NCBI GenBank assembly: GCA_000433915.1
Contig: HF993639.1
Coordinates: 1-59,632 of the forward strand
Direction: 5' to 3'
DNA: 59,632 nt
Origin: Clostridium sp. CAG:793
Lineage (GTDB): Bacteria; Bacillota; Clostridia; TANB77; CAG-508
The position numbers were made by a program, and so were the translations under genes. The notes beneath the pieces are model-generated. The model saw nothing but the letters and a program-made list of their open reading frames with translations. It did not search any database and was not told the DNA's origin. Shown here in pieces: positions 2,857-50,890 of the stretch. The first letter of the stretch is position 1. The number at the start of each line of letters is the position of its first letter.

Positions 2857-4062
2857 TTATGATTCTGTTGTAGCACCTGAAGCTAGCTTATATCCTCCTG
2901 GTAGATAGTCTAGTGGATTTAATGGTGATTTACTAAAGAATTGTGATATTGATGTTGCTTGTCTTATTTCAAAATGTAAATGTGCACCAGTGCTACCTCC
3001 TGAGTTACCTGATGTTGCAATTACTTGTCCTTGTTTTACTAATTGTCCATCTGATACATGACTCTTTGATAAATGTCCATATAATGTTACATATCCACTT
3101 CCGTGGAATACCATAATATATACTCCATATCCATTTCTATCATATGCATTATATGCATATCCTGTTGCTGATGCATATACTGATTCATACGATGCACCAA
3201 TATCTATTCCTTTATGTAATCTTCCCCATCTTTTCTTTACTGTTGATGTTACAGTTTTGTTATTACATGGCCATATAAAGCTTCCATCAAATTTAAGTCC
3301 GTCTGAGCCATTGTTTTTATTATTTTTTATTTGTTCGTGTGCTTTTCTGAATGCTTCCTCTAACTTTTTATTTACATCATCCATTGCTTTATTGTATTTA
3401 TCTATTTCATCTTGTTTTTCTTTTTCTTCTTGTGTTAGAGTTGCTATCTTTAATTTCTTTTGAGCTTGCTTTTCTGATAGTTCCGTATTTTTCGCTTCTT
3501 TTTGTGATTTTACACTATCAACTTCTGCTTTCTGAACTTCTAGCTCTTTTTTAGCGTTTTCTAATTCTTCTTTTTCACTAGATACTTTGTTTATAAGTTC
3601 TGTGTCTGCATCCGCTATTCTTGATAAAGCGTCATACGAGCTTAGCATTTCTATATAATCACTTGCTCCAAGTAAAACATCTAGATAACTAATTCCACCT
3701 TTTTTGTATAGTGTTACTAGTCTTTTCTTCAATAGCTCTTGTTTTTCTTCTAAGTCTTTTTGTTTTGCGTCTATTTCTTTTTGTTTCTTTTCTATTGATT
3801 CATTTAATTCATTTATTTTACTTTGTAATTCCGAAATTTCGTTTTGTATATTTATAAGCTCATAATTGATTGTGTCTAATTCACTTTGCTCATTTGCTTT
3901 TTGATTTTTTATCTGATCTTTTTCTTGTGCTGTTTGCTGCATTTGGCTATTTAACGCATTTTTTTCCTTATTTAAATCATCTATTGTAGATGCAAAGCTT
4001 GTTAGTCCTATTGTCATAACTAAAGATGTAACTATTGTCAGGGATAATATTCTTCCTTTCAT
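2857..4062 (-). CDS. Coiled-coil M23 (LytM-type) peptidoglycan metalloendopeptidase, copy 1
   Basis: It has a signal/anchor, a long coiled coil, and an M23 domain with HKGIDIGA and HLHFEI motifs. An AGGAGG RBS precedes the ATG at 4062. Confidence 0.88.
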   Translation of the reverse strand: MKGRILSLTIVTSLVMTIGLTSFASTIDDLNKEKNALNSQMQQTAQEKDQIKNQKANEQSELDTINYELINIQNEISELQSKINELNESIEKKQKEIDAKQKDLEEKQELLKKRLVTLYKKGGISYLDVLLGASDYIEMLSSYDALSRIADADTELINKVSSEKEELENAKKELEVQKAEVDSVKSQKEAKNTELSEKQAQKKLKIATLTQEEKEKQDEIDKYNKAMDDVNKKLEEAFRKAHEQIKNNKNNGSDGLKFDGSFIWPCNNKTVTSTVKKRWGRLHKGIDIGASYESVYASATGYAYNAYDRNGYGVYIMVFHGSGYVTLYGHLSKSHVSDGQLVKQGQVIATSGNSGGSTGAHLHFEIRQATSISQFFSKSPLNPLDYLPGGYKLASGATTES

Positions 4063-4071
4063 TAGTACCTC

Positions 4072-4992
4072 CTATACTTTTAAATATTTTCTCATTGAGA
4101 TTGCACTTCCCACTACGCCTATTCCTATTCCTAGTAATAAATATACTGATAATAATTTTGTAAATACTCCTGAGAAGCTATATAGAGCTATTCCCATTCT
4201 TTGAATTACTGATGATGCTAATATTTGGTTTATTAAAATATCATATACAGGTCCTACAATAGCTAATATTATTACTGCTGATATTATTCCTATTATTACA
4301 CCTTCTACAATAAATGGACCTCTTATAAATCCGTTTGTCGCTCCAACATATTTCATTATAGAAATCTCTCTTCTTCGTGCATATACTGTAAGTTTTATTG
4401 TATATGCAATTATAAATACTGATATTACTATTAATATTAATAATAATACTAATGTTGCTATCTGGATTCCTTTTGCTACACTTGCTAAGCTTGATATTGT
4501 GTCATCACTGCTTGTTATTTCATCTACTCCATCTAGCTTTAGTATCTGTTCTTGGACTTGTTTATTTAATGTCAAATCAGTTAATGTTACAAAATATGAT
4601 GCTGGAAATGGATTATCTTCTGCATATGTATCTAGTAAGTCTTGATGTGTTCCAAGTACAGTTTTCATTGATGCAAGTGCATCTTCTTTTGATTGAAATG
4701 TTACTTTATTAACTCCTGTTATTTGTTGTATTCTTGTTTTTAAGTTATCTATTTCATCTTCTGTTGCATCATCTTTTATTACAACTCTCATTCCTTGTTG
4801 GCTTTCGACTTGTTTCATTATGTAATTTACATTTTCTCCTATTAAGAAGAATGCTCCGAAAATAAACATTGTTGCACACATTATAATTATTGATGCACTT
4901 GTCATTTTCTTTTGCTTTACAATGCTTCTAAATCCTTCACTTATTAAATATCCTATACTACTATATCTCACCGTCATACCCACCTTTTTCAT
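4072..4992 (-). CDS. ftsX: Cell-division ABC transporter permease FtsX
   Basis: The topology is FtsX-like: TM1, a large extracellular loop, then 3 C-terminal TMs. It lies immediately downstream of ftsE and overlaps it. The start is ambiguous (4992 or 4977). Confidence 0.88.
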   Translation of the reverse strand: MKKVGMTVRYSSIGYLISEGFRSIVKQKKMTSASIIIMCATMFIFGAFFLIGENVNYIMKQVESQQGMRVVIKDDATEDEIDNLKTRIQQITGVNKVTFQSKEDALASMKTVLGTHQDLLDTYAEDNPFPASYFVTLTDLTLNKQVQEQILKLDGVDEITSSDDTISSLASVAKGIQIATLVLLLILIVISVFIIAYTIKLTVYARRREISIMKYVGATNGFIRGPFIVEGVIIGIISAVIILAIVGPVYDILINQILASSVIQRMGIALYSFSGVFTKLLSVYLLLGIGIGVVGSAISMRKYLKV

Positions 4993-5644
4993 CTCTTACA
5001 ATATTTCCATGGTCTATACGAATAACTCTTTTATTCATTTTGTCTACTATATCTTTTGCGTGTGTTGCAACAACTACAGTTGTTCCTCTTAAATTTATGT
5101 CATTTAATAGTTCCATTATATCCCATGCTGTGTTTGGGTCTAAGTTTCCTGTAGGCTCATCTGCTATTAGCATTGATGGATTATTTACTATTGCTCTTGC
5201 TAAGGCTACTCTTTGTTGCTCTCCTCCAGATAGTTCGTTTGGATATACCTTTGCCTTATTACTTAGTCCTACTAGTGATAATACCATTGGTACTTGTCTT
5301 CTTATATGTTTTGGAGTAGCCTTTACAACATACATTGCAAATGCTACATTTTCATATACTGTTTTATCTGGTAAAAGTCTAAAGTCTTGGAATACTATTC
5401 CCATGCTTCTTCTTAAGTATGGAACTCTACTTGGTTTTAAGAATGTAGTATCTTTTCCGTTTATAATTATGTTACCTGATGATGGTTCTTCTTCTTTTAG
5501 TATCATTTTTATTAATGTTGATTTTCCTGATCCAGAACTACCAACTAAAAAGCAAAATTCTCCTTTGTCAATCTTGAAGTTTGCATTGTGTATGGCTTCT
5601 GTTCCAGTGTCATAAGTTTTACTTACATTTCTAAATTCTATCAT
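4961..5644 (-). CDS. ftsE: Cell-division ABC transporter ATPase FtsE
   Basis: Motifs present: Walker A GSSGSGKST, signature LSGGEQQRV and Walker B LIADEPTGNLD. The start MIEFRNV at 5644 follows AAAGGAAG. The ORF-track extension to 5710 runs into the promoter. Confidence 0.93.
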   Translation of the reverse strand: MIEFRNVSKTYDTGTEAIHNANFKIDKGEFCFLVGSSGSGKSTLIKMILKEEEPSSGNIIINGKDTTFLKPSRVPYLRRSMGIVFQDFRLLPDKTVYENVAFAMYVVKATPKHIRRQVPMVLSLVGLSNKAKVYPNELSGGEQQRVALARAIVNNPSMLIADEPTGNLDPNTAWDIMELLNDINLRGTTVVVATHAKDIVDKMNKRVIRIDHGNIVRDEKGGYDGEI

Positions 5645-5710: not shown

Positions 5711-5838
5711 GATATATATGAAATTTTTTCGGGAAATTTAGCCCAATTTTGACTAAATATTACTTTTATTTTTTTCTTTAATTTCGTATCCTCTTTGGTT
5801 ATAATTAATTATATTATTTTTAAAGGAGCAAAAGAAAA

Positions 5839-6756
5839 ATGAAAAAAAATGAAATTAAGAAAATACGTTTTGATAAGGTTTGTGATGATTGGTTGGCTTA
5901 TAAAAAGCCTATTATAAAGGAATCTACTTATTTGAATTATGCTTTTACTATTAAGAAACGTTTTGAAAAGGATTTTGAAAATAAGACTATTGATTATTTC
6001 TTTCATTATGATTTAAATCATTATATTGAATTATTACAAGAAAAACTATCTAATAAAACTATTAGAGAACATATTACAATTTTTAAGTCTATACTTAAGT
6101 ATGCGGAAAGGAAATATGATTTTGATTTTAAGCTTGATCTGGTTTCTCTTCCTAAAGCAGATTCCAAACAACTTGAAATTTTTAGTGACAATGAAGTTAA
6201 GAAAATTGAAAATTATATTATAAATTCCAAAGATTTTAAAAATCTTGGTGTTCTTATTAGTTTATATGCTGGTCTTCGTATAGGTGAAGTTTGCGCTTTA
6301 AGGTGGTGTGATATTGATTTTGATAAAAAGCTTTTAAATGTTACTCATACTTTGCAAAGAGTTTATGCTGGCTATAATAATACAAAAGTGGTTTATACTC
6401 TTCCTAAAACAAAACACTCTATACGAAAAATTCCTATTTCTAAATCTTTATATACAATTTTAAGAAATTATAAAAAATATTTTAAATCTGATTCATATAT
6501 TTTAACTGGTAAAACAGAGCATTGTCTTGAGCCTATTGCTTATAGATATACATATAAAAAGATTTTGCACGATTGTTTAATTAATTATAAAAATTTTCAT
6601 TGTTTACGTCATACTTTTGCTACAAGATGTATTCGTGTTGGTATGGATGTTAAGTCCTTAAGTGAAATTCTCGGACATTCTAATGTGAGTATTACTCTTG
6701 AAATATATGTTCATTCTTCTTTTGAGATAAAGAAAAAGTTCATTGATAAATTATAA
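5839..6756 (+). CDS. Tyrosine recombinase / site-specific integrase (phage-integrase family), orphan
   Basis: Catalytic residues are readable: R in GLRIGEV, HxxR in HCLRHTFATR, and H...Y in LGHSNVSITLEIYVH. There is an N-terminal SAM-like core-binding domain and an AAAGGAG RBS. It is the only plus-strand gene in the first 20 kb. Confidence 0.9.
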   Translation: MKKNEIKKIRFDKVCDDWLAYKKPIIKESTYLNYAFTIKKRFEKDFENKTIDYFFHYDLNHYIELLQEKLSNKTIREHITIFKSILKYAERKYDFDFKLDLVSLPKADSKQLEIFSDNEVKKIENYIINSKDFKNLGVLISLYAGLRIGEVCALRWCDIDFDKKLLNVTHTLQRVYAGYNNTKVVYTLPKTKHSIRKIPISKSLYTILRNYKKYFKSDSYILTGKTEHCLEPIAYRYTYKKILHDCLINYKNFHCLRHTFATRCIRVGMDVKSLSEILGHSNVSITLEIYVHSSFEIKKKFIDKL

Positions 6757-6763
6757 AAAACAA

Positions 6764-6788
6764 GGGACATTCACTGAATTAATGTCCC
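6764..6788 (+). terminator. Hairpin after the integrase gene
   Basis: GGGACATT (6764-6771) pairs with AATGTCCC (6781-6788). The following T-tract is weak. Confidence 0.4.
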
Positions 6789-6796
6789 GCATTTGA

Positions 6797-6830
6797 ATTG
6801 ATATTATATCTTCTGTTCTCTAATATCAAT
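6797..6830. repeat. Perfect 10-bp inverted repeat with a 14-bp spacer (candidate recombinase or regulator site)
   Basis: ATTGATATTA (6797-6806) and TAATATCAAT (6821-6830) are exact reverse complements, 40 bp downstream of the integrase stop. Confidence 0.6.
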
Positions 6831-6948
6831 TATTATTTCAAATAATATATTTACATAAATCGATATTTGAATTTATGTTCGATTTTCATAATAACTATAT
6901 CTTTTTTGTGATGTGTATAACTCCTATCTTCTAATTCAGTTATAATAG

Positions 6949-6978
6949 TTATCCACAGAGTTATCCACATTATCCACA
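6949..6978 (+). promoter_or_regulatory. Cluster of three perfect DnaA boxes
   Basis: TTATCCACA occurs at 6949-6957, 6961-6969 and 6970-6978. All three are in the same orientation and match the 9-mer consensus exactly. Confidence 0.85.
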
Positions 6979-6989
6979 GTTTTATTTTT

Positions 6990-7006
6990 TGTCGATTTAT
7001 GTCGAA
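6990..7006 (+). promoter_or_regulatory. Tandem Spo0A (0A) boxes
   Basis: TGTCGAT (6990-6996) and TGTCGAA (7000-7006) are spaced 10 bp apart. The 0A-box consensus is TGTCGAA. The tandem arrangement resembles the B. subtilis abrB operator. Confidence 0.55.
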
Positions 7007-7082
7007 TTGTACTAAACATAATATTGTTTGAATTTTATTTTTCGTAAACTTATTATTTTTATTGTATTAATTTTTAGCAAAA

Positions 7083-7112
7083 GAAAAAGAGACCTAGTCA
7101 TATCTAGGTCTC
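7083..7112 (-). terminator. Rho-independent terminator of the sRNA / recN transcript
   Basis: GAGACCTAG (7089-7097) pairs with CTAGGTCTC (7104-7112), a 9-bp stem. On the minus strand it is followed by UUUUUCUUUU. Confidence 0.8.
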
Positions 7113-7294
7113 CTAAAAGCCACAGTTGTTAGGTATGTATTCCGTTTATGGTTTGCAAACATGACGGTCAGGTTAGAGCAAGCAATTCTTGCACAACTGT
7201 ATAGGCTTTTATAATGCCGAGATTTTAGAAATTTTGCTTGTTTTGGGGATTAAGTTTAAAATTTCTAATCTTTGTGAAGTACTATTCACACGGC
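7083..7294 (-). ncRNA. Candidate small RNA (about 210 nt) downstream of recN, class unknown
   Basis: It has its own TTGACA-17-TAAAAT promoter and a strong intrinsic terminator. No RBS-led ORF is present. Predicted stems include TGCCG/CGGCA, GTGAA/TTCAC, GATTAGAAATTTT/AAAATTTCTAAAATC (apical loop contains AUCCCCAAA) and a 97-nt hairpin closed by AAAAGCC/GGCTTTT. Confidence 0.5.
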
Positions 7295-7300
7295 AATTAT

Positions 7301-23221: not shown

Positions 23222-23368
23222 AAAAAAAGAGTTACATATAGTGTAACTCTTTTTAGATAATATATCTATCATCACTCAAAGTTATACACTTTGACGGTAT
23301 TAGCACCTTGCTTTTGCAGGTTGCTGTGGAGTCTATAAGCCGTTTCTCTCGTCCACTCTTGATAATAA
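23222..23368 (-). promoter_or_regulatory. SAM-I (S-box) riboswitch with terminator, metK leader
   Basis: The minus strand reads TTATCAAGAGTGGACGAGAGAAACGGC...CCACAGCAACC...AGGTGCTAATACC...GATGATAG. The expression-platform hairpin AGAGTTACA/TGTAACTCT (23228-23250) plus a U7 run follows. Confidence 0.85.
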
Positions 23369-39918: not shown

Positions 39919-40156
39919 TTTGTTTTTCCCTCCTTAAAATTTTTAATTTCGGTCGGAAGTTATAAACGCACCCTGGTGTTTCTTTTATTACCATTATAAA
40001 ATCCCAAGTTGCATGAATATCTTGGGGCTAAAGTGCTTTAATATTTATAAAACTTGCCGCCTGGTCTTAGCCATGACATACTCCATAAGAGTTCCCTGCA
40101 TCGCTTGATATTACTAGTGTGCAGCCACATCTTACTTCATTGCTCTTTTTACATGC
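39919..40156 (-). promoter_or_regulatory. Long (about 235 nt) structured 5' leader of the S10 operon, class unknown
   Basis: It lies between a consensus promoter and the rpsJ RBS and is locally more GC-rich than the surroundings. Stems include CTGCA/TGCAG and a hairpin CCCAAG-N12-CTTGGG followed by AUUUUAUAAU (attenuator-like). Confidence 0.45.
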
Positions 40157-49946: not shown

Positions 49947-50453
49947 TCATTCATTTATTATCTTTTTATTTGAAGCTTCAATTTTATTTTCTAATTTATA
50001 TGTATCATTTTCATCATATTCTTTTGATTCTATCTTTTTCTTCATTATAACTTTTGTTCCAAAACCTATCGCAGATTCTACCTTTACTTCGTCCATGAAG
50101 CTTTCCATTATTGTAAATCCCATTCCGGATCTCTCTAAGTCAGGTTTAGATGTATATAATGGTCTCATTGCCATTTCTACATTTTCTATTCCTTTTCCTC
50201 TATCTGAAATCACAATTTCTATATTATTTGCAAATATCTTTGCTTCTATTTTTACGATCCCATCTTCATCATCATATCCATGGATTATGCTATTGGTTAC
50301 TGCTTCTGACACTGCTGTTTTTATGTCTGATAACTCATCTATTGTTGGGTCTAATTGTGCAGCAAAGGCAGCTACTGTTATCCTAGCAAATGCTTCATTG
50401 CTAGTTTTACTTGTAAATTCTAATTTCATCTCATTGTCATATAATCCCTTCAT
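49947..50453 (-). CDS. spoIIAB: Anti-sigma F factor SpoIIAB (serine kinase)
   Basis: It is GHKL-type: [17 protein letters not shown] and [10 protein letters not shown]. The ATG at 50453 lies 6 nt after GAGGAGG, and the ORF-track ATG at 50468 sits within that RBS. There is a C-terminal extension of about 25 aa. Confidence 0.92.
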
Positions 50454-50775
50454 TATTTTCCTCCTCATCCATTTGTATTGGTATTATCCTTGATACTCCA
50501 CTCATATCAAATATTCTTTTTAATCTCTTTTTTACATTTATTATTTCAAATTGTCCTCCTAATAATTTTACTAATTTATATCTTCCTAATACCATTCCTA
50601 TTCCTGAGCTATCCATAAATAAAATGTCACTAAAATCAAATATAACTTTTCTTGGACTAAATCTTTCAATGTCACCGTCTACCTTTCTTCTAATTTTGTC
50701 AGCTGTATGCTGATCAATTTCTTCTGTTAATTTAAAAGTTAATACTTTTCCCTCTTTTGAATATGTTGAAATCAC
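50437..50775 (-). CDS. spoIIAA: Anti-sigma F factor antagonist SpoIIAA (STAS domain)
   Basis: The phosphorylatable-Ser context is [14 protein letters not shown]. It uses a GTG start with an AAGGAGGG RBS. Confidence 0.92.
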
Positions 50776-50864: not shown

Positions 50865-50890
50865 TGTCGAATCTTGACAAGTTTTCGACA
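50865..50890. promoter_or_regulatory. Inverted pair of perfect Spo0A boxes upstream of the spoIIA operon
   Basis: TGTCGAA (50865-50871) and TTCGACA (50884-50890) lie about 90-115 nt upstream of the spoIIAA start. Spo0A activation of spoIIA is well established. Confidence 0.6.

What the first reader, a model, noticed from the sequence alone, without database searches (positions are those of the whole stretch)
6850..7080. Three perfect DnaA boxes fused to tandem Spo0A boxes in a convergent, gene-less intergenic region
TTATCCACA occurs three times in the same orientation within 30 bp (6949-6957, 6961-6969, 6970-6978). Twelve bp further on sit TGTCGAT (6990-6996) and TGTCGAA (7000-7006), spaced 10 bp apart, the arrangement of tandem 0A boxes at B. 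subtilis abrB. An 11-bp inverted repeat, ACATAAATCGA (6853-6863) and TCGATTTATGT (6992-7002), brackets the DnaA boxes. About 80 bp of nearly pure A+T follows.

The module lies between the 3' end of the integrase gene and the 3' end of the recN/sRNA transcript. I found no RBS-led ORF on either strand that it could control.

It is unlikely to be oriC: there is no dnaA or dnaN here, and gene orientation does not switch across it.

Possible interpretations:
- a DnaA-box cluster of the kind that titrates DnaA in B. subtilis, here additionally wired to Spo0A;
- a DnaA/Spo0A-gated promoter for an unannotated short transcript (functionally sda-like);
- a relic replication or maintenance module of a decayed element that brought the integrase.

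Three consensus 9-mers arising by chance in 30 bp of a 70% AT genome is effectively impossible.
Basis: partly seen in the sequence, partly recalled or inferred. Interest (0 to 1): 0.7.

Follow-up and report, generated by a model that had tools for sequence, protein, structure and literature searches.

The report
Non-origin DnaA-box cluster with Spo0A boxes
A short gene-free stretch in an uncultured, spore-forming gut Clostridium carries four consensus binding sites for the replication initiator DnaA next to two sites for the sporulation regulator Spo0A; it is real and not the replication origin, but it looks like a small lineage-specific version of the known "DnaA-box clusters", and its function is unproven.

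Summary
The window holds only three perfect TTATCCACA boxes, all within 6949-6978. A fourth, inverted box (TTATACACA, 6912-6920) fits the TTATNCACA consensus. TGTCGAT and TGTCGAA follow at 6990 and 7000.

The window's only other perfect TGTCGAA motifs form an inverted pair upstream of spoIIAA-spoIIAB-sigF. That pair makes the Spo0A reading credible.

It is not oriC. GC skew stays negative throughout, no dnaA gene was seen in the window or 10 kb beyond its right end, and there is no DnaA-trio run.

All 25 conspecific contigs show ftsE-integrase-boxes-sRNA-recN in one orientation. The box/0A segment is invariant (p about 0.01-0.03). None of 51 related genomes has a DnaA-box cluster or this gene order around recN, and more distant homologues of the integrase have no boxes nearby.

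The 11-bp inverted repeat is polymorphic and near chance level. The A+T tract is 85% AT, not pure. No RBS-led ORF or convincing promoter exists.

Best reading: a DNA-level DnaA binding module, probably also bound by Spo0A-P, of the B. subtilis DnaA-box-cluster type. Rivals are a control region for a non-coding transcript and an inert phage or plasmid relic. Triple arrays are common on viral contigs. Interest is moderate.

The parts
6912..6920 (-). Fourth DnaA box, TTATACACA. It is inverted relative to the array and lies 28 bp from box 1.
   Evidence: It matches TTATNCACA. It shares the flanks GAG..AT with box 2 at 12 of 13 positions (I7). It is invariant in 25 conspecific contigs.
6949..6957 (+). 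DnaA box 1, a perfect TTATCCACA
6961..6969 (+). DnaA box 2, perfect, with a 3-bp spacer (GAG) after box 1
6970..6978 (+). DnaA box 3, perfect, directly abutting box 2
   Evidence: A 21-nt direct repeat (6938-6958 / 6959-6979, D3) suggests the array grew by duplication of a unit of two 9-mers plus 3 bp.
6990..6996 (+). Near-consensus Spo0A box, TGTCGAT. It keeps G2, C4 and G5.
   Evidence: The critical positions are taken from PMC3485338.
7000..7006 (+). Perfect Spo0A box, TGTCGAA, 10 bp after the first
   Evidence: The other two perfect copies in the window sit in the spoIIA promoter region.
6926..7029 (.). A 104-bp block with no polymorphism in 25 conspecific contigs (15 haplotypes). It covers the three direct boxes and the 0A pair.
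   Evidence: One search gives the variable positions. One search gives the maximum-gap simulation, p = 0.005-0.04 within the intergenic region. The block is not exceptional against the whole 1.7 kb.
7007..7085 (.). A+T-rich tract (85% AT) between the 0A pair and the sRNA terminator
   Evidence: It has no DnaA-trio run. A candidate -35 at 7028-7033 is polymorphic.
6764..6788 (.). Hairpin GGGACATT-N9-AATGTCCC just after the integrase stop codon, with the better T-run on the - strand. It forms the left boundary of the interval.
   Evidence: Sequence. The stem is invariant and the loop variable among strains. The terminator scan missed it because the loop is 9 nt.
7087..7114 (-). Intrinsic terminator of the neighbouring RNA gene. 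It forms the right boundary of the interval.
   Evidence: 11-bp stem followed by a T-run

Best explanation
The interval is a chromosomal DnaA-box cluster outside the replication origin. Four consensus boxes lie within 67 bp: three head-to-tail and one inverted. A tandem pair of Spo0A boxes sits 12 bp away.

It most likely works at the DNA level, with no product of its own. DnaA occupies the high-affinity boxes. The locus would then act as a small DnaA sink or regulatory binding site, like the B. subtilis DnaA-box clusters. Spo0A-P binding next to the array at the onset of sporulation would modify that occupancy, as Spo0A does at the B. subtilis origin.

Shown here: the motifs, their non-chance clustering, the non-origin location, the absence of a gene, and conservation within the species. 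Inferred: binding by DnaA and by Spo0A-P. Speculative: any effect on replication control.

The module is specific to this species-level lineage. It sits at a synteny breakpoint next to a solitary phage-type integrase, so it was probably acquired or created there rather than inherited.
For: - Clustering. Three perfect boxes lie in 30 bp, against 0.48 expected in the whole window. A fourth TTATNCACA box is inverted 28 bp upstream.
- Background rate. Pairs of boxes within 40 bp occur nowhere in the chromosomal part (roughly 0.8 Mb, about 60 loci) of the 0.94 Mb of non-conspecific loci. The only such pairs in the 0.94 Mb are in the six phage loci fetched by the box array itself. No cluster exists in 51 recN loci of relatives.
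- 0A pair. Its spacing matches tandem 0A boxes. The only other perfect TGTCGAA motifs in the window are an inverted pair about 90-115 bp upstream of spoIIAA-spoIIAB-sigF. spoIID, a spoIIQ-like gene and yunB are also present, so the organism has the sporulation programme.
- Spo0A specificity. Clostridial Spo0A recognises TGTCGAA with G2, C4 and G5 critical (PMC3485338).
- Conservation. All 25 conspecific contigs keep the module. Of 22 variable intergenic positions, none falls in 6926-7029. For the a priori segment 6949-7006 this gives p of about 0.01-0.03 (my calculation). The maximum-gap simulation gives 0.005-0.04.
- No gene or product. There is no RBS-led ORF, no promoter above background, no Rfam match, and no significant RNA structure on the - strand (z = -1.3).
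- Precedents. Six non-origin clusters in B. subtilis bind DnaA and affect initiation (PMC3245932). Spo0A boxes lie beside or overlap DnaA boxes at the B. subtilis oriC (PMC5295017).
- A comparable non-origin cluster with the same box-GAG-box-box layout lies between sigH and hisD in Monoglobus pectinilyticus.
Against: - Only four boxes are present, at the low end for the DnaA-binding clusters cited here: datA has five high-affinity boxes, and the major B. subtilis DnaA-binding regions are those with the most boxes.
- Boxes 2 and 3 abut with no spacer. Simultaneous occupancy is uncertain, and this spacing is rare among viral triple arrays (5 of 130).
- The locus lies between two 3' ends, not in a promoter region. 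In B. subtilis, DnaA regulates genes next to at least three of the six non-origin clusters (sda, ywlC, yydA).
- The module is confined to one species-level lineage, so there is no deep conservation. The within-species evidence of constraint is modest, and not significant against the whole 1.7-kb region.
- A spo0A gene and the distance to oriC could not be checked.
- Total TGTCGAA counts in the window are at chance level.
Confidence: 0.42

Rival explanations
1. The boxes are operators of a promoter for an unannotated non-coding transcript. DnaA and Spo0A-P would gate one of two candidates. The first is a short - strand RNA that ends at the 6764-6788 hairpin. The second is a + strand RNA that runs antisense into the neighbouring sRNA and recN.
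For: - The interval is bounded by two - strand terminators (7087-7114; the 6764-6788 hairpin with T-run TTGTTTTTT on the - strand). That layout is what a small - strand transcription unit would look like.
- Candidate -35/-10 pairs exist. On the - strand: 7080-7052, and 6917-6888, which overlaps box 4. On the + strand: 7028-7056. A perfect TATAAT lies at 6941-6946 on the + strand, just before box 1.
- DnaA regulates sda, ywlC, yydA and dnaA from such clusters in B. subtilis (PMC3245932).
- Tandem 0A boxes downstream of a start site repress abrB (general knowledge).
Against: - All candidate promoters score 9 of 12 or less, which is background for this AT-rich DNA: 21 were found against 14.3 expected.
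- The TATAAT has no -35 element and no TG extension.
- The -35 of the + strand candidate is polymorphic among strains (7030 G to A in 7 of 25).
- The putative - strand RNA has no significant fold (z = -1.3). Its AT hairpin shows non-compensated changes (6800 and 6830).
- There is no coding potential.
Confidence: 0.22
2. The interval is an inert remnant of a mobile element that brought the integrase. It would be the origin-like or att-arm region of a decayed prophage or plasmid. It would still be able to bind DnaA but would have no present role.
For: - The neighbouring gene is a phage-type tyrosine integrase (phrog_1, E = 6e-55) and falls below the XerC/XerD cut-offs.
- The gene points toward the RNA gene's 3' end, as in an attL-int arrangement.
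- The whole sRNA-boxes-integrase block sits at a synteny breakpoint. It is absent from 51 relatives, where recN is followed directly by lysS, thyA or other genes.
They include the same 3+0 spacing and a small faecal phage.
- A 13-nt direct repeat, AGCAAAAGAAAAA, flanks the integrase plus the interval (5827-5839 and 7076-7088).
Against: - No rep, excisionase or other element gene remains.
- No empty site was seen in 25 conspecific contigs.
- Integrase homologues in other species are solitary and lack boxes.
- None of 124 viral loci with arrays has a similar integrase nearby.
- The 13-nt repeat is about what chance gives (roughly 0.3 expected) and would cut through the integrase's own ribosome-binding site.
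- The box/0A block shows fewer polymorphisms than its flanks.
Confidence: 0.25
3. The interval is an invertible (phase-variable) DNA switch. The integrase would flip it between the 11-bp inverted repeats at 6853-6863 and 6992-7002.
For: A perfect 11-bp inverted repeat brackets the boxes (I9). A tyrosine recombinase gene is adjacent.
Against: - All 25 assembled conspecific contigs have the same orientation.
- The inverted-junction pattern had no hit. This is a weak test, because the species is almost absent from that collection.
- The left arm is polymorphic (6861 C to T in 4 of 25; 6862 G to T in 1 of 25) while the right arm is fixed.
- Three perfect 11-nt inverted repeats occur in 641 bp of this DNA.
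- No gene lies on either side for a switch to drive.
Confidence: 0.03
4. The interval is a second or displaced chromosomal replication origin, or a copied fragment of oriC.
For: Three head-to-tail DnaA boxes followed by A+T-rich DNA resemble the oriC2 core of Firmicutes, where three boxes lie upstream of the DnaA-trios in C. difficile and B. subtilis (PMC7561715).
Against: - There is no run of three or more DnaA-trio triplets on either strand within 6881-7090.
- GC skew stays negative across the locus and the whole window.
- No dnaA or dnaN gene was seen among the window's ORFs (inspection and partial family scans) or among the genes called 10 kb beyond its right end.
- The A+T tract is unremarkable for this genome.
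Confidence: 0.03

Closest known systems
[quoted passage not shown]
   Same: Both are intergenic clusters of consensus DnaA boxes outside oriC in a Firmicute. Both are predicted to bind DnaA stably. The possible roles are the same: DnaA titration and/or local transcription control.
   Different: This cluster has only four boxes, three of them perfect and tightly packed (spacers of 3 and 0 bp). It lies between two 3' ends with no gene to regulate. It carries adjacent Spo0A boxes. It is confined to one uncultured lineage. Binding and any effect are untested.
Spo0A boxes within the B. subtilis oriC (Boonstra et al. 2013, as summarised in PMC5295017 and PMC7561715)
   Same: TGTCGAA-type boxes lie next to or overlap DnaA boxes. 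This arrangement lets Spo0A-P interfere with DnaA action at the onset of sporulation.
   Different: The site here is not an origin, and the 0A boxes are separate from the DnaA boxes (an 11-bp gap) rather than overlapping them. No unwinding element or DnaA-trios are present.
E. coli datA (DnaA-titrating and DnaA-inactivating locus)
   Same: Both are non-coding chromosomal clusters of a few high-affinity DnaA boxes that act in cis as a protein-binding site.
   Different: datA needs IHF and promotes hydrolysis of DnaA-ATP. No such partner site can be recognised here. The phylum and regulatory logic differ.
Tandem DnaA-box arrays on phage and plasmid genomes (IMG/VR contigs, faecal phage MT839632)
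   Same: The head-to-tail arrays of perfect TTATCCACA are the same. Some have the identical box-NNN-box-box layout followed by T-rich DNA.
   Different: Viral arrays mostly use 2-3 bp spacers. None has an adjacent 0A box or a similar integrase. Their function is not established either.
Monoglobus pectinilyticus sigH-hisD intergenic cluster (NZ_OY725736.1, near 366100)
   Same: It is a non-origin cluster in another gut Clostridium with the layout AGTTATCAACA-GAG-TTATTCACA-TTATCCACC-GTTTT, plus further boxes within 120 bp.
   Different: Its boxes are mostly one mismatch from consensus. No TGTCGAA lies nearby. It sits upstream of a gene (hisD). The resemblance may only reflect DnaA's flank preferences.

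Membership tests
Non-origin DnaA-box cluster (B. subtilis DBC type) | Several DnaA boxes (TTATNCACA or close) clustered in an intergenic region | tested here: met
   Four consensus boxes lie in 67 bp, three of them perfect. Comparable clustering is absent from the chromosomal part (roughly 0.8 Mb) of the 0.94 Mb of other loci scanned.
Non-origin DnaA-box cluster (B. subtilis DBC type) | Located outside oriC | tested here: met
   There is no skew switch. No dnaA or dnaN gene was seen among the window's ORFs or in the 10 kb beyond its right end. No DnaA-trios are present.
Non-origin DnaA-box cluster (B. subtilis DBC type) | Stable DnaA binding in vivo or in vitro | not testable with these tools
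   This needs EMSA, footprinting or ChIP.
Non-origin DnaA-box cluster (B. subtilis DBC type) | Effect on initiation timing or on a neighbouring gene | not testable with these tools
   The organism is uncultured. No neighbouring promoter could be identified.
Chromosomal origin / basal unwinding system | DnaA-trio repeat directly next to the proximal DnaA boxes | tested here: not met
   No run of three or more triplets of any trio-like form occurs on either strand in 6881-7090.
Chromosomal origin / basal unwinding system | GC-skew switch and dnaA/dnaN neighbourhood | tested here: not met
   Skew is negative in every 2-kb bin. The neighbours are ftsEX, an integrase, recN, disA and radA.
Chromosomal origin / basal unwinding system | A+T-rich unwinding element | tested here: inconclusive
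   The tract is 85% AT and in the top 2% or so of the window for instability, but it is matched by coding stretches.
Spo0A-regulated site (0A boxes) | TGTCGAA core with G2, C4 and G5, often in tandem at about 10 bp | tested here: met
   TGTCGAT and TGTCGAA lie at 6990 and 7000. The critical bases are taken from PMC3485338.
Spo0A-regulated site (0A boxes) | The organism encodes Spo0A and uses this motif | tested here: inconclusive
   No spo0A gene was found in the DNA available. However, sigF, spoIIAB, spoIIAA, spoIID and yunB are present, and a perfect inverted 0A pair lies upstream of spoIIAA.
Spo0A-regulated site (0A boxes) | A promoter or gene under its control | tested here: not met
   No ORF with an RBS exists. 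No promoter scores above background.
sda-like DnaA-activated checkpoint gene | A small ORF with an RBS downstream of the boxes | tested here: not met
   Only ORFs without a Shine-Dalgarno sequence are present (27, 29, 34 and 39 aa). The single AGGAG is followed by no start codon, and an indel polymorphism lies there.
Invertible promoter switch (inverton) | Conserved inverted repeats and both orientations present in populations | tested here: not met
   25 of 25 contigs show one orientation and the left arm is polymorphic. The inverted junction was not found (a weak test).
Theta-type plasmid or phage origin | Initiator (rep) gene with iterons next to the DnaA boxes | tested here: not met
   There is no rep gene. 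Only a 2-copy 10-bp repeat (the 0A pair) is present.

The most novel reading that the evidence does not exclude
The module could be a sporulation-gated DnaA sink. In a clostridial lineage assumed to lack the Bacillus checkpoint proteins Sda and SirA (an assumption from their known taxonomic range, not tested here), Spo0A-P binding beside a high-affinity DnaA array would switch DnaA sequestration on or off. This would couple replication initiation to entry into sporulation through a cis-acting DNA element rather than a protein.
Probability: 0.1. Interest if true: 0.7.

Novelty: new member of a known kind. Interest (0 to 1): 0.35.

Why it matters
Control of replication initiation outside Bacillus and E. 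coli is poorly known. No non-origin DnaA-box cluster has, to my knowledge, been described in Clostridia.

If bound, a compact array of perfect DnaA boxes next to Spo0A boxes would give a simple, testable cis-element linking the replication initiator and the master sporulation regulator. The host is a prevalent but uncultured human-gut spore-former.

The claim is limited. The element is confined to one lineage and binding is only inferred. Similar DnaA-box arrays are widespread on phage contigs, so the locus may be no more than acquired DNA.

Tried and rejected
- Comparative genomics via recN. Fifty-one related loci were fetched. None has a box cluster, the same gene order or detectable similarity to the interval or the sRNA. 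Conservation beyond the species could therefore not be assessed.
- Integrase homologues. The only close one (94% identity) is a sister lineage with the same locus. The next (64% or less) are solitary genes in other contexts without boxes.
- Inverton test. The inverted-junction pattern gave no hits in metagenome contigs. An sRNA anchor showed the species is nearly absent from that collection (1 contig), so this negative result is weak.
- DnaA-plus-0A composite pattern. No hits in viral contigs, and none among the arrays fetched.
- Phage and plasmid BLAST of the interval. Only the box array itself matches.
- att-like 13-nt direct repeat flanking the integrase plus the interval. Rejected as evidence: about 0.3 are expected by chance, it is A-rich, and it would split the integrase's ribosome-binding site.
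- dif-like or core-site reading of ACATAAAT-N10-ATTTATGT (6853-6878). It is near chance level, the locus is not at a skew switch, and no motif is shared with other integrase loci.
- Small ORFs, including a hydrophobic 34-aa + strand ORF (7028-7132). It has no RBS, a TTG start and T-rich codons, and it runs through the terminator hairpin.
- Sigma-H-type and sigma-A-type promoter reading around the boxes, by eye. The spacings do not fit.
It was found only in the Bacillaceae loci.
- Locating this species' own oriC. This was not possible with the look-ups allowed.

Full report
**What is in the sequence**

The three TTATCCACA boxes sit at the stated coordinates on the + strand: 6949-6957, 6961-6969 and 6970-6978. 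They are the only perfect matches in the 59,632-base window. Dinucleotide-preserving shuffles give 0.48 per window, and none of 100 shuffles reaches three.

A fourth box, TTATACACA at 6912-6920 on the - strand, fits the B. subtilis TTATNCACA consensus. It shares the flanks GAG..AT with box 2 at 12 of 13 positions (I7). The cluster is therefore four boxes in 67 bp: one inverted, a 28-bp gap, then three head-to-tail with spacers of 3 and 0 bp.

A 21-nt direct repeat (6938-6958 / 6959-6979, D3) suggests the array grew by duplication of a unit of two 9-mers plus 3 bp.

TGTCGAT (6990) and TGTCGAA (7000) follow, 10 bp apart. The 11-bp inverted repeat is present as described (I9).

**Surroundings**

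The left neighbours are ctpB, two M23/PcsB-type peptidase genes, ftsX and ftsE, all on the - strand. A 305-aa tyrosine integrase gene on the + strand (5839-6756) follows them. The right neighbours are recN, a cyclophilin gene, disA and radA, all on the - strand.

Immediately after recN there is a near-consensus promoter: TTGACA-17-TAAAAT with a TG extension, at 7329-7301 on the - strand. A strong terminator lies at 7114-7087. Together they bracket an RNA of about 205 nt that folds far better than shuffles (-59.2 kcal/mol, z = -5.85). It matches no Rfam family.

A second hairpin (6764-6788) sits just after the integrase stop codon and has its better T-run on the - strand. The DnaA/0A module thus lies in a 329-bp interval (6757-7085) between the integrase stop codon, which the first hairpin directly follows, and the sRNA terminator.

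No ORF of 20 aa or more has a Shine-Dalgarno sequence. The single AGGAG (6925-6921, - strand) is followed by no start codon.

**Not an origin**

- GC skew is negative in every 2-kb bin of the window.
- Apart from the integrase gene and a few short ORFs elsewhere in the window, the ORFs of 70 aa or more are all on the - strand on both sides.
- No dnaA or dnaN gene was seen among the window's ORFs (inspection and partial family scans) or among the genes called in the 10 kb beyond its right end.
- There is no run of three or more DnaA-trio-like triplets on either strand next to the boxes. That run is a defining part of the Firmicute unwinding module, in which three boxes sit upstream of the trios in B. 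subtilis and C. difficile (PMC7561715; PMC6669920).
- The tract after the boxes is 85% A+T. It is in the top 2% or so of the window for duplex instability, but coding stretches match or exceed it. "Nearly pure A+T" overstates it.

**The Spo0A reading**

The organism is an uncultured gut Clostridium. Its best recN relatives are MAGs at 72% identity or less. The window encodes SigF, SpoIIAB, SpoIIAA, SpoIID, a SpoIIQ-like protein and YunB, so the organism has the sporulation programme.

Perfect TGTCGAA occurs three times in the window on both strands. That count is at chance level overall (2.2 expected). However, the two copies outside the finding form an inverted pair, TGTCGAA-N13-TTCGACA, about 90-115 bp upstream of spoIIAA. 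This is where Spo0A is expected to act.

Clostridial Spo0A recognises the same core, with G2, C4 and G5 critical (PMC3485338). Both boxes here keep those bases.

By my estimate, a perfect box within 50 bp of the DnaA array has a chance probability of about 0.004. A second 6-of-7 box in 10-bp register lowers this further, although a local duplication could have produced the pair.

I could not find spo0A itself in the DNA available.

**Population and comparative evidence**

The integrase protein occurs with identical sequence in 1363 blocks of the assembly collection. I read 25 conspecific contigs, giving 15 haplotypes. They include a sister lineage with 94% integrase identity. All show ftsE-integrase-boxes-sRNA-recN in the same orientation, and none is an empty site.

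Of the 22 variable positions in 6757-7085, none lies in 6926-7029.

- For the segment defined in advance by the finding (6949-7006), the chance of escaping all 22 is about 0.014. If clustered changes are counted as 18 events, it is 0.03.
- A maximum-gap simulation gives 0.005-0.04.
- Against the whole 1.7-kb region, a 104-bp gap is not exceptional, so the evidence for constraint is modest.

The left arm of the 11-bp inverted repeat is polymorphic (6861 and 6862), while the right arm, which overlaps the 0A pair, is fixed. The -35 of the only + strand promoter candidate is polymorphic as well (7030). The stem of the 6764-6788 hairpin is fixed and its loop varies.

Beyond the species the locus disappears.

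- None of 51 recN loci from related genomes has a box cluster, the same gene order, or similarity to the interval or the sRNA.
- In those relatives recN is followed directly by lysS, thyA or other genes.
- Integrase homologues of 64% identity or less are solitary genes in unrelated contexts without boxes.
- In the 0.94 Mb of non-conspecific loci, two boxes within 40 bp occur only in six phage loci that had been fetched by the array itself. The chromosomal loci (roughly 0.8 Mb) have none, and none of the six arrays has a 0A box within 100 bp.

**Mobile-element angle**

The integrase is of the phage type (phrog_1, E = 6e-55) and falls below the XerC/XerD cut-offs.

Most have 2-3 bp spacers. The 3+0 layout seen here is rare, at 5 of 130, but it recurs in several places:

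- five viral contigs;
- a faecal phage fragment;
- the Monoglobus pectinilyticus chromosome, in degenerate form, between sigH and hisD.

None of the 124 viral loci with arrays carries a similar integrase. The composite DnaA-plus-0A pattern has no viral hit.

A 13-nt direct repeat flanks the integrase plus the interval. It is about what chance gives, and it would cut the integrase's ribosome-binding site.

**Interpretation**

It is robust that this is a real, non-origin cluster of high-affinity DnaA sites with a credible Spo0A site beside it, and that it encodes nothing recognisable. The closest known kind is the B. subtilis DnaA-box cluster (PMC3245932). The DnaA/Spo0A juxtaposition is known from the B. 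subtilis oriC (PMC5295017).

My confidence in each reading:

| Reading | Confidence |
|---|---|
| DNA-level DnaA binding module, probably also bound by Spo0A-P | 0.42 |
| Inert relic of a mobile element | 0.25 |
| Operator region of an unannotated non-coding transcript | 0.22 |
| Inverton | 0.03 |
| Second origin | 0.03 |

The relic reading draws on the integrase, the synteny breakpoint and the abundance of viral arrays. The transcript reading draws on the two - strand terminators that bracket the interval, but no promoter stands out. Inverton and second-origin readings fail their defining tests.

Binding, transcription and inversion can all be tested with EMSA and with existing gut metatranscriptomes and metagenomes.

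**Verdict**

This is a new member of a known kind, of moderate interest (0.35). The most novel surviving reading, a sporulation-gated DnaA sink, has a probability of about 0.1.

Noticed in passing
window 7086-7296 (- strand); promoter 7329-7301; terminator 7114-7087: A candidate structured RNA of about 205 nt lies directly after recN. It has a near-consensus promoter (11 of 12, with a TG extension) and a strong terminator. Its fold is -59.2 kcal/mol with z = -5.85. It has no Rfam match, and among all fetched loci it was found only in this species.
   Followed up: partly
window 50865-50871 (+) and 50884-50890 (-): A perfect inverted pair of Spo0A boxes (TGTCGAA-N13-TTCGACA) lies about 90-115 bp upstream of spoIIAA (50437-50775, - strand), the first gene of spoIIAA-spoIIAB-sigF. 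These are the only other perfect 0A boxes in the window.
   Followed up: partly
L078 3970-4090 (Monoglobus pectinilyticus NZ_OY725736.1, about 366070-366190): A non-origin DnaA-box cluster of five boxes (one perfect, four with one mismatch) lies in the 528-bp spacer between sigH and hisD. It has the same box-GAG-box-box-GTTTT layout. The record is labelled a 518-kb 'plasmid' but carries housekeeping genes.
   Followed up: partly
Their role in phages was not examined.
   Followed up: partly
L054 1-3900: One strain carries an inovirus-like insertion (Zot-like protein, Phage_CRI replication protein, and a second integrase of 298 aa) next to ctpB. In the other strains the dprA-cmk-rpoZ-remA block lies there.
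   Followed up: no
L077 1-9100 (beyond the right end of the window): Just past the window's right end, one strain has a block with a large serine recombinase, a Mob_Pre relaxase fragment, a PIN-domain protein and many unknown small genes, next to rpmB. It is probably an integrated mobilisable element.
   Followed up: no
window 5827-5839 and 7076-7088: A perfect 13-nt direct repeat, AGCAAAAGAAAAA, flanks the integrase gene plus the box interval (spacing 1249 bp). The right copy is the T-run of the sRNA terminator. About 0.3 such repeats are expected by chance.
   Followed up: partly
L069 versus L070/L071, around 3000-5600: Next to an integrase homologue (P0053, 56% identity), strains differ by the presence of a 252-aa gene and a 169-aa gene. 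This suggests recombinase-associated variable content between bacA and pyrG.
   Followed up: no
L064 4850-4945: In one viral contig the DnaA-box array is preceded by a CIRCE-like inverted repeat (TTAGCACTC-N10-GAGTGCTAA) and by repeated GGGTGACAA motifs.
   Followed up: no
window 23266-23368 (-) and 40054-40148 (-): Rfam finds a SAM riboswitch upstream of metK, and the S10-Clostridia ribosomal-protein leader exactly at its gathering score.
   Followed up: no
L086 123-1331: In one strain radA is split into two ORFs (146 and 228 aa). This is either a frameshift or an assembly error.
   Followed up: no
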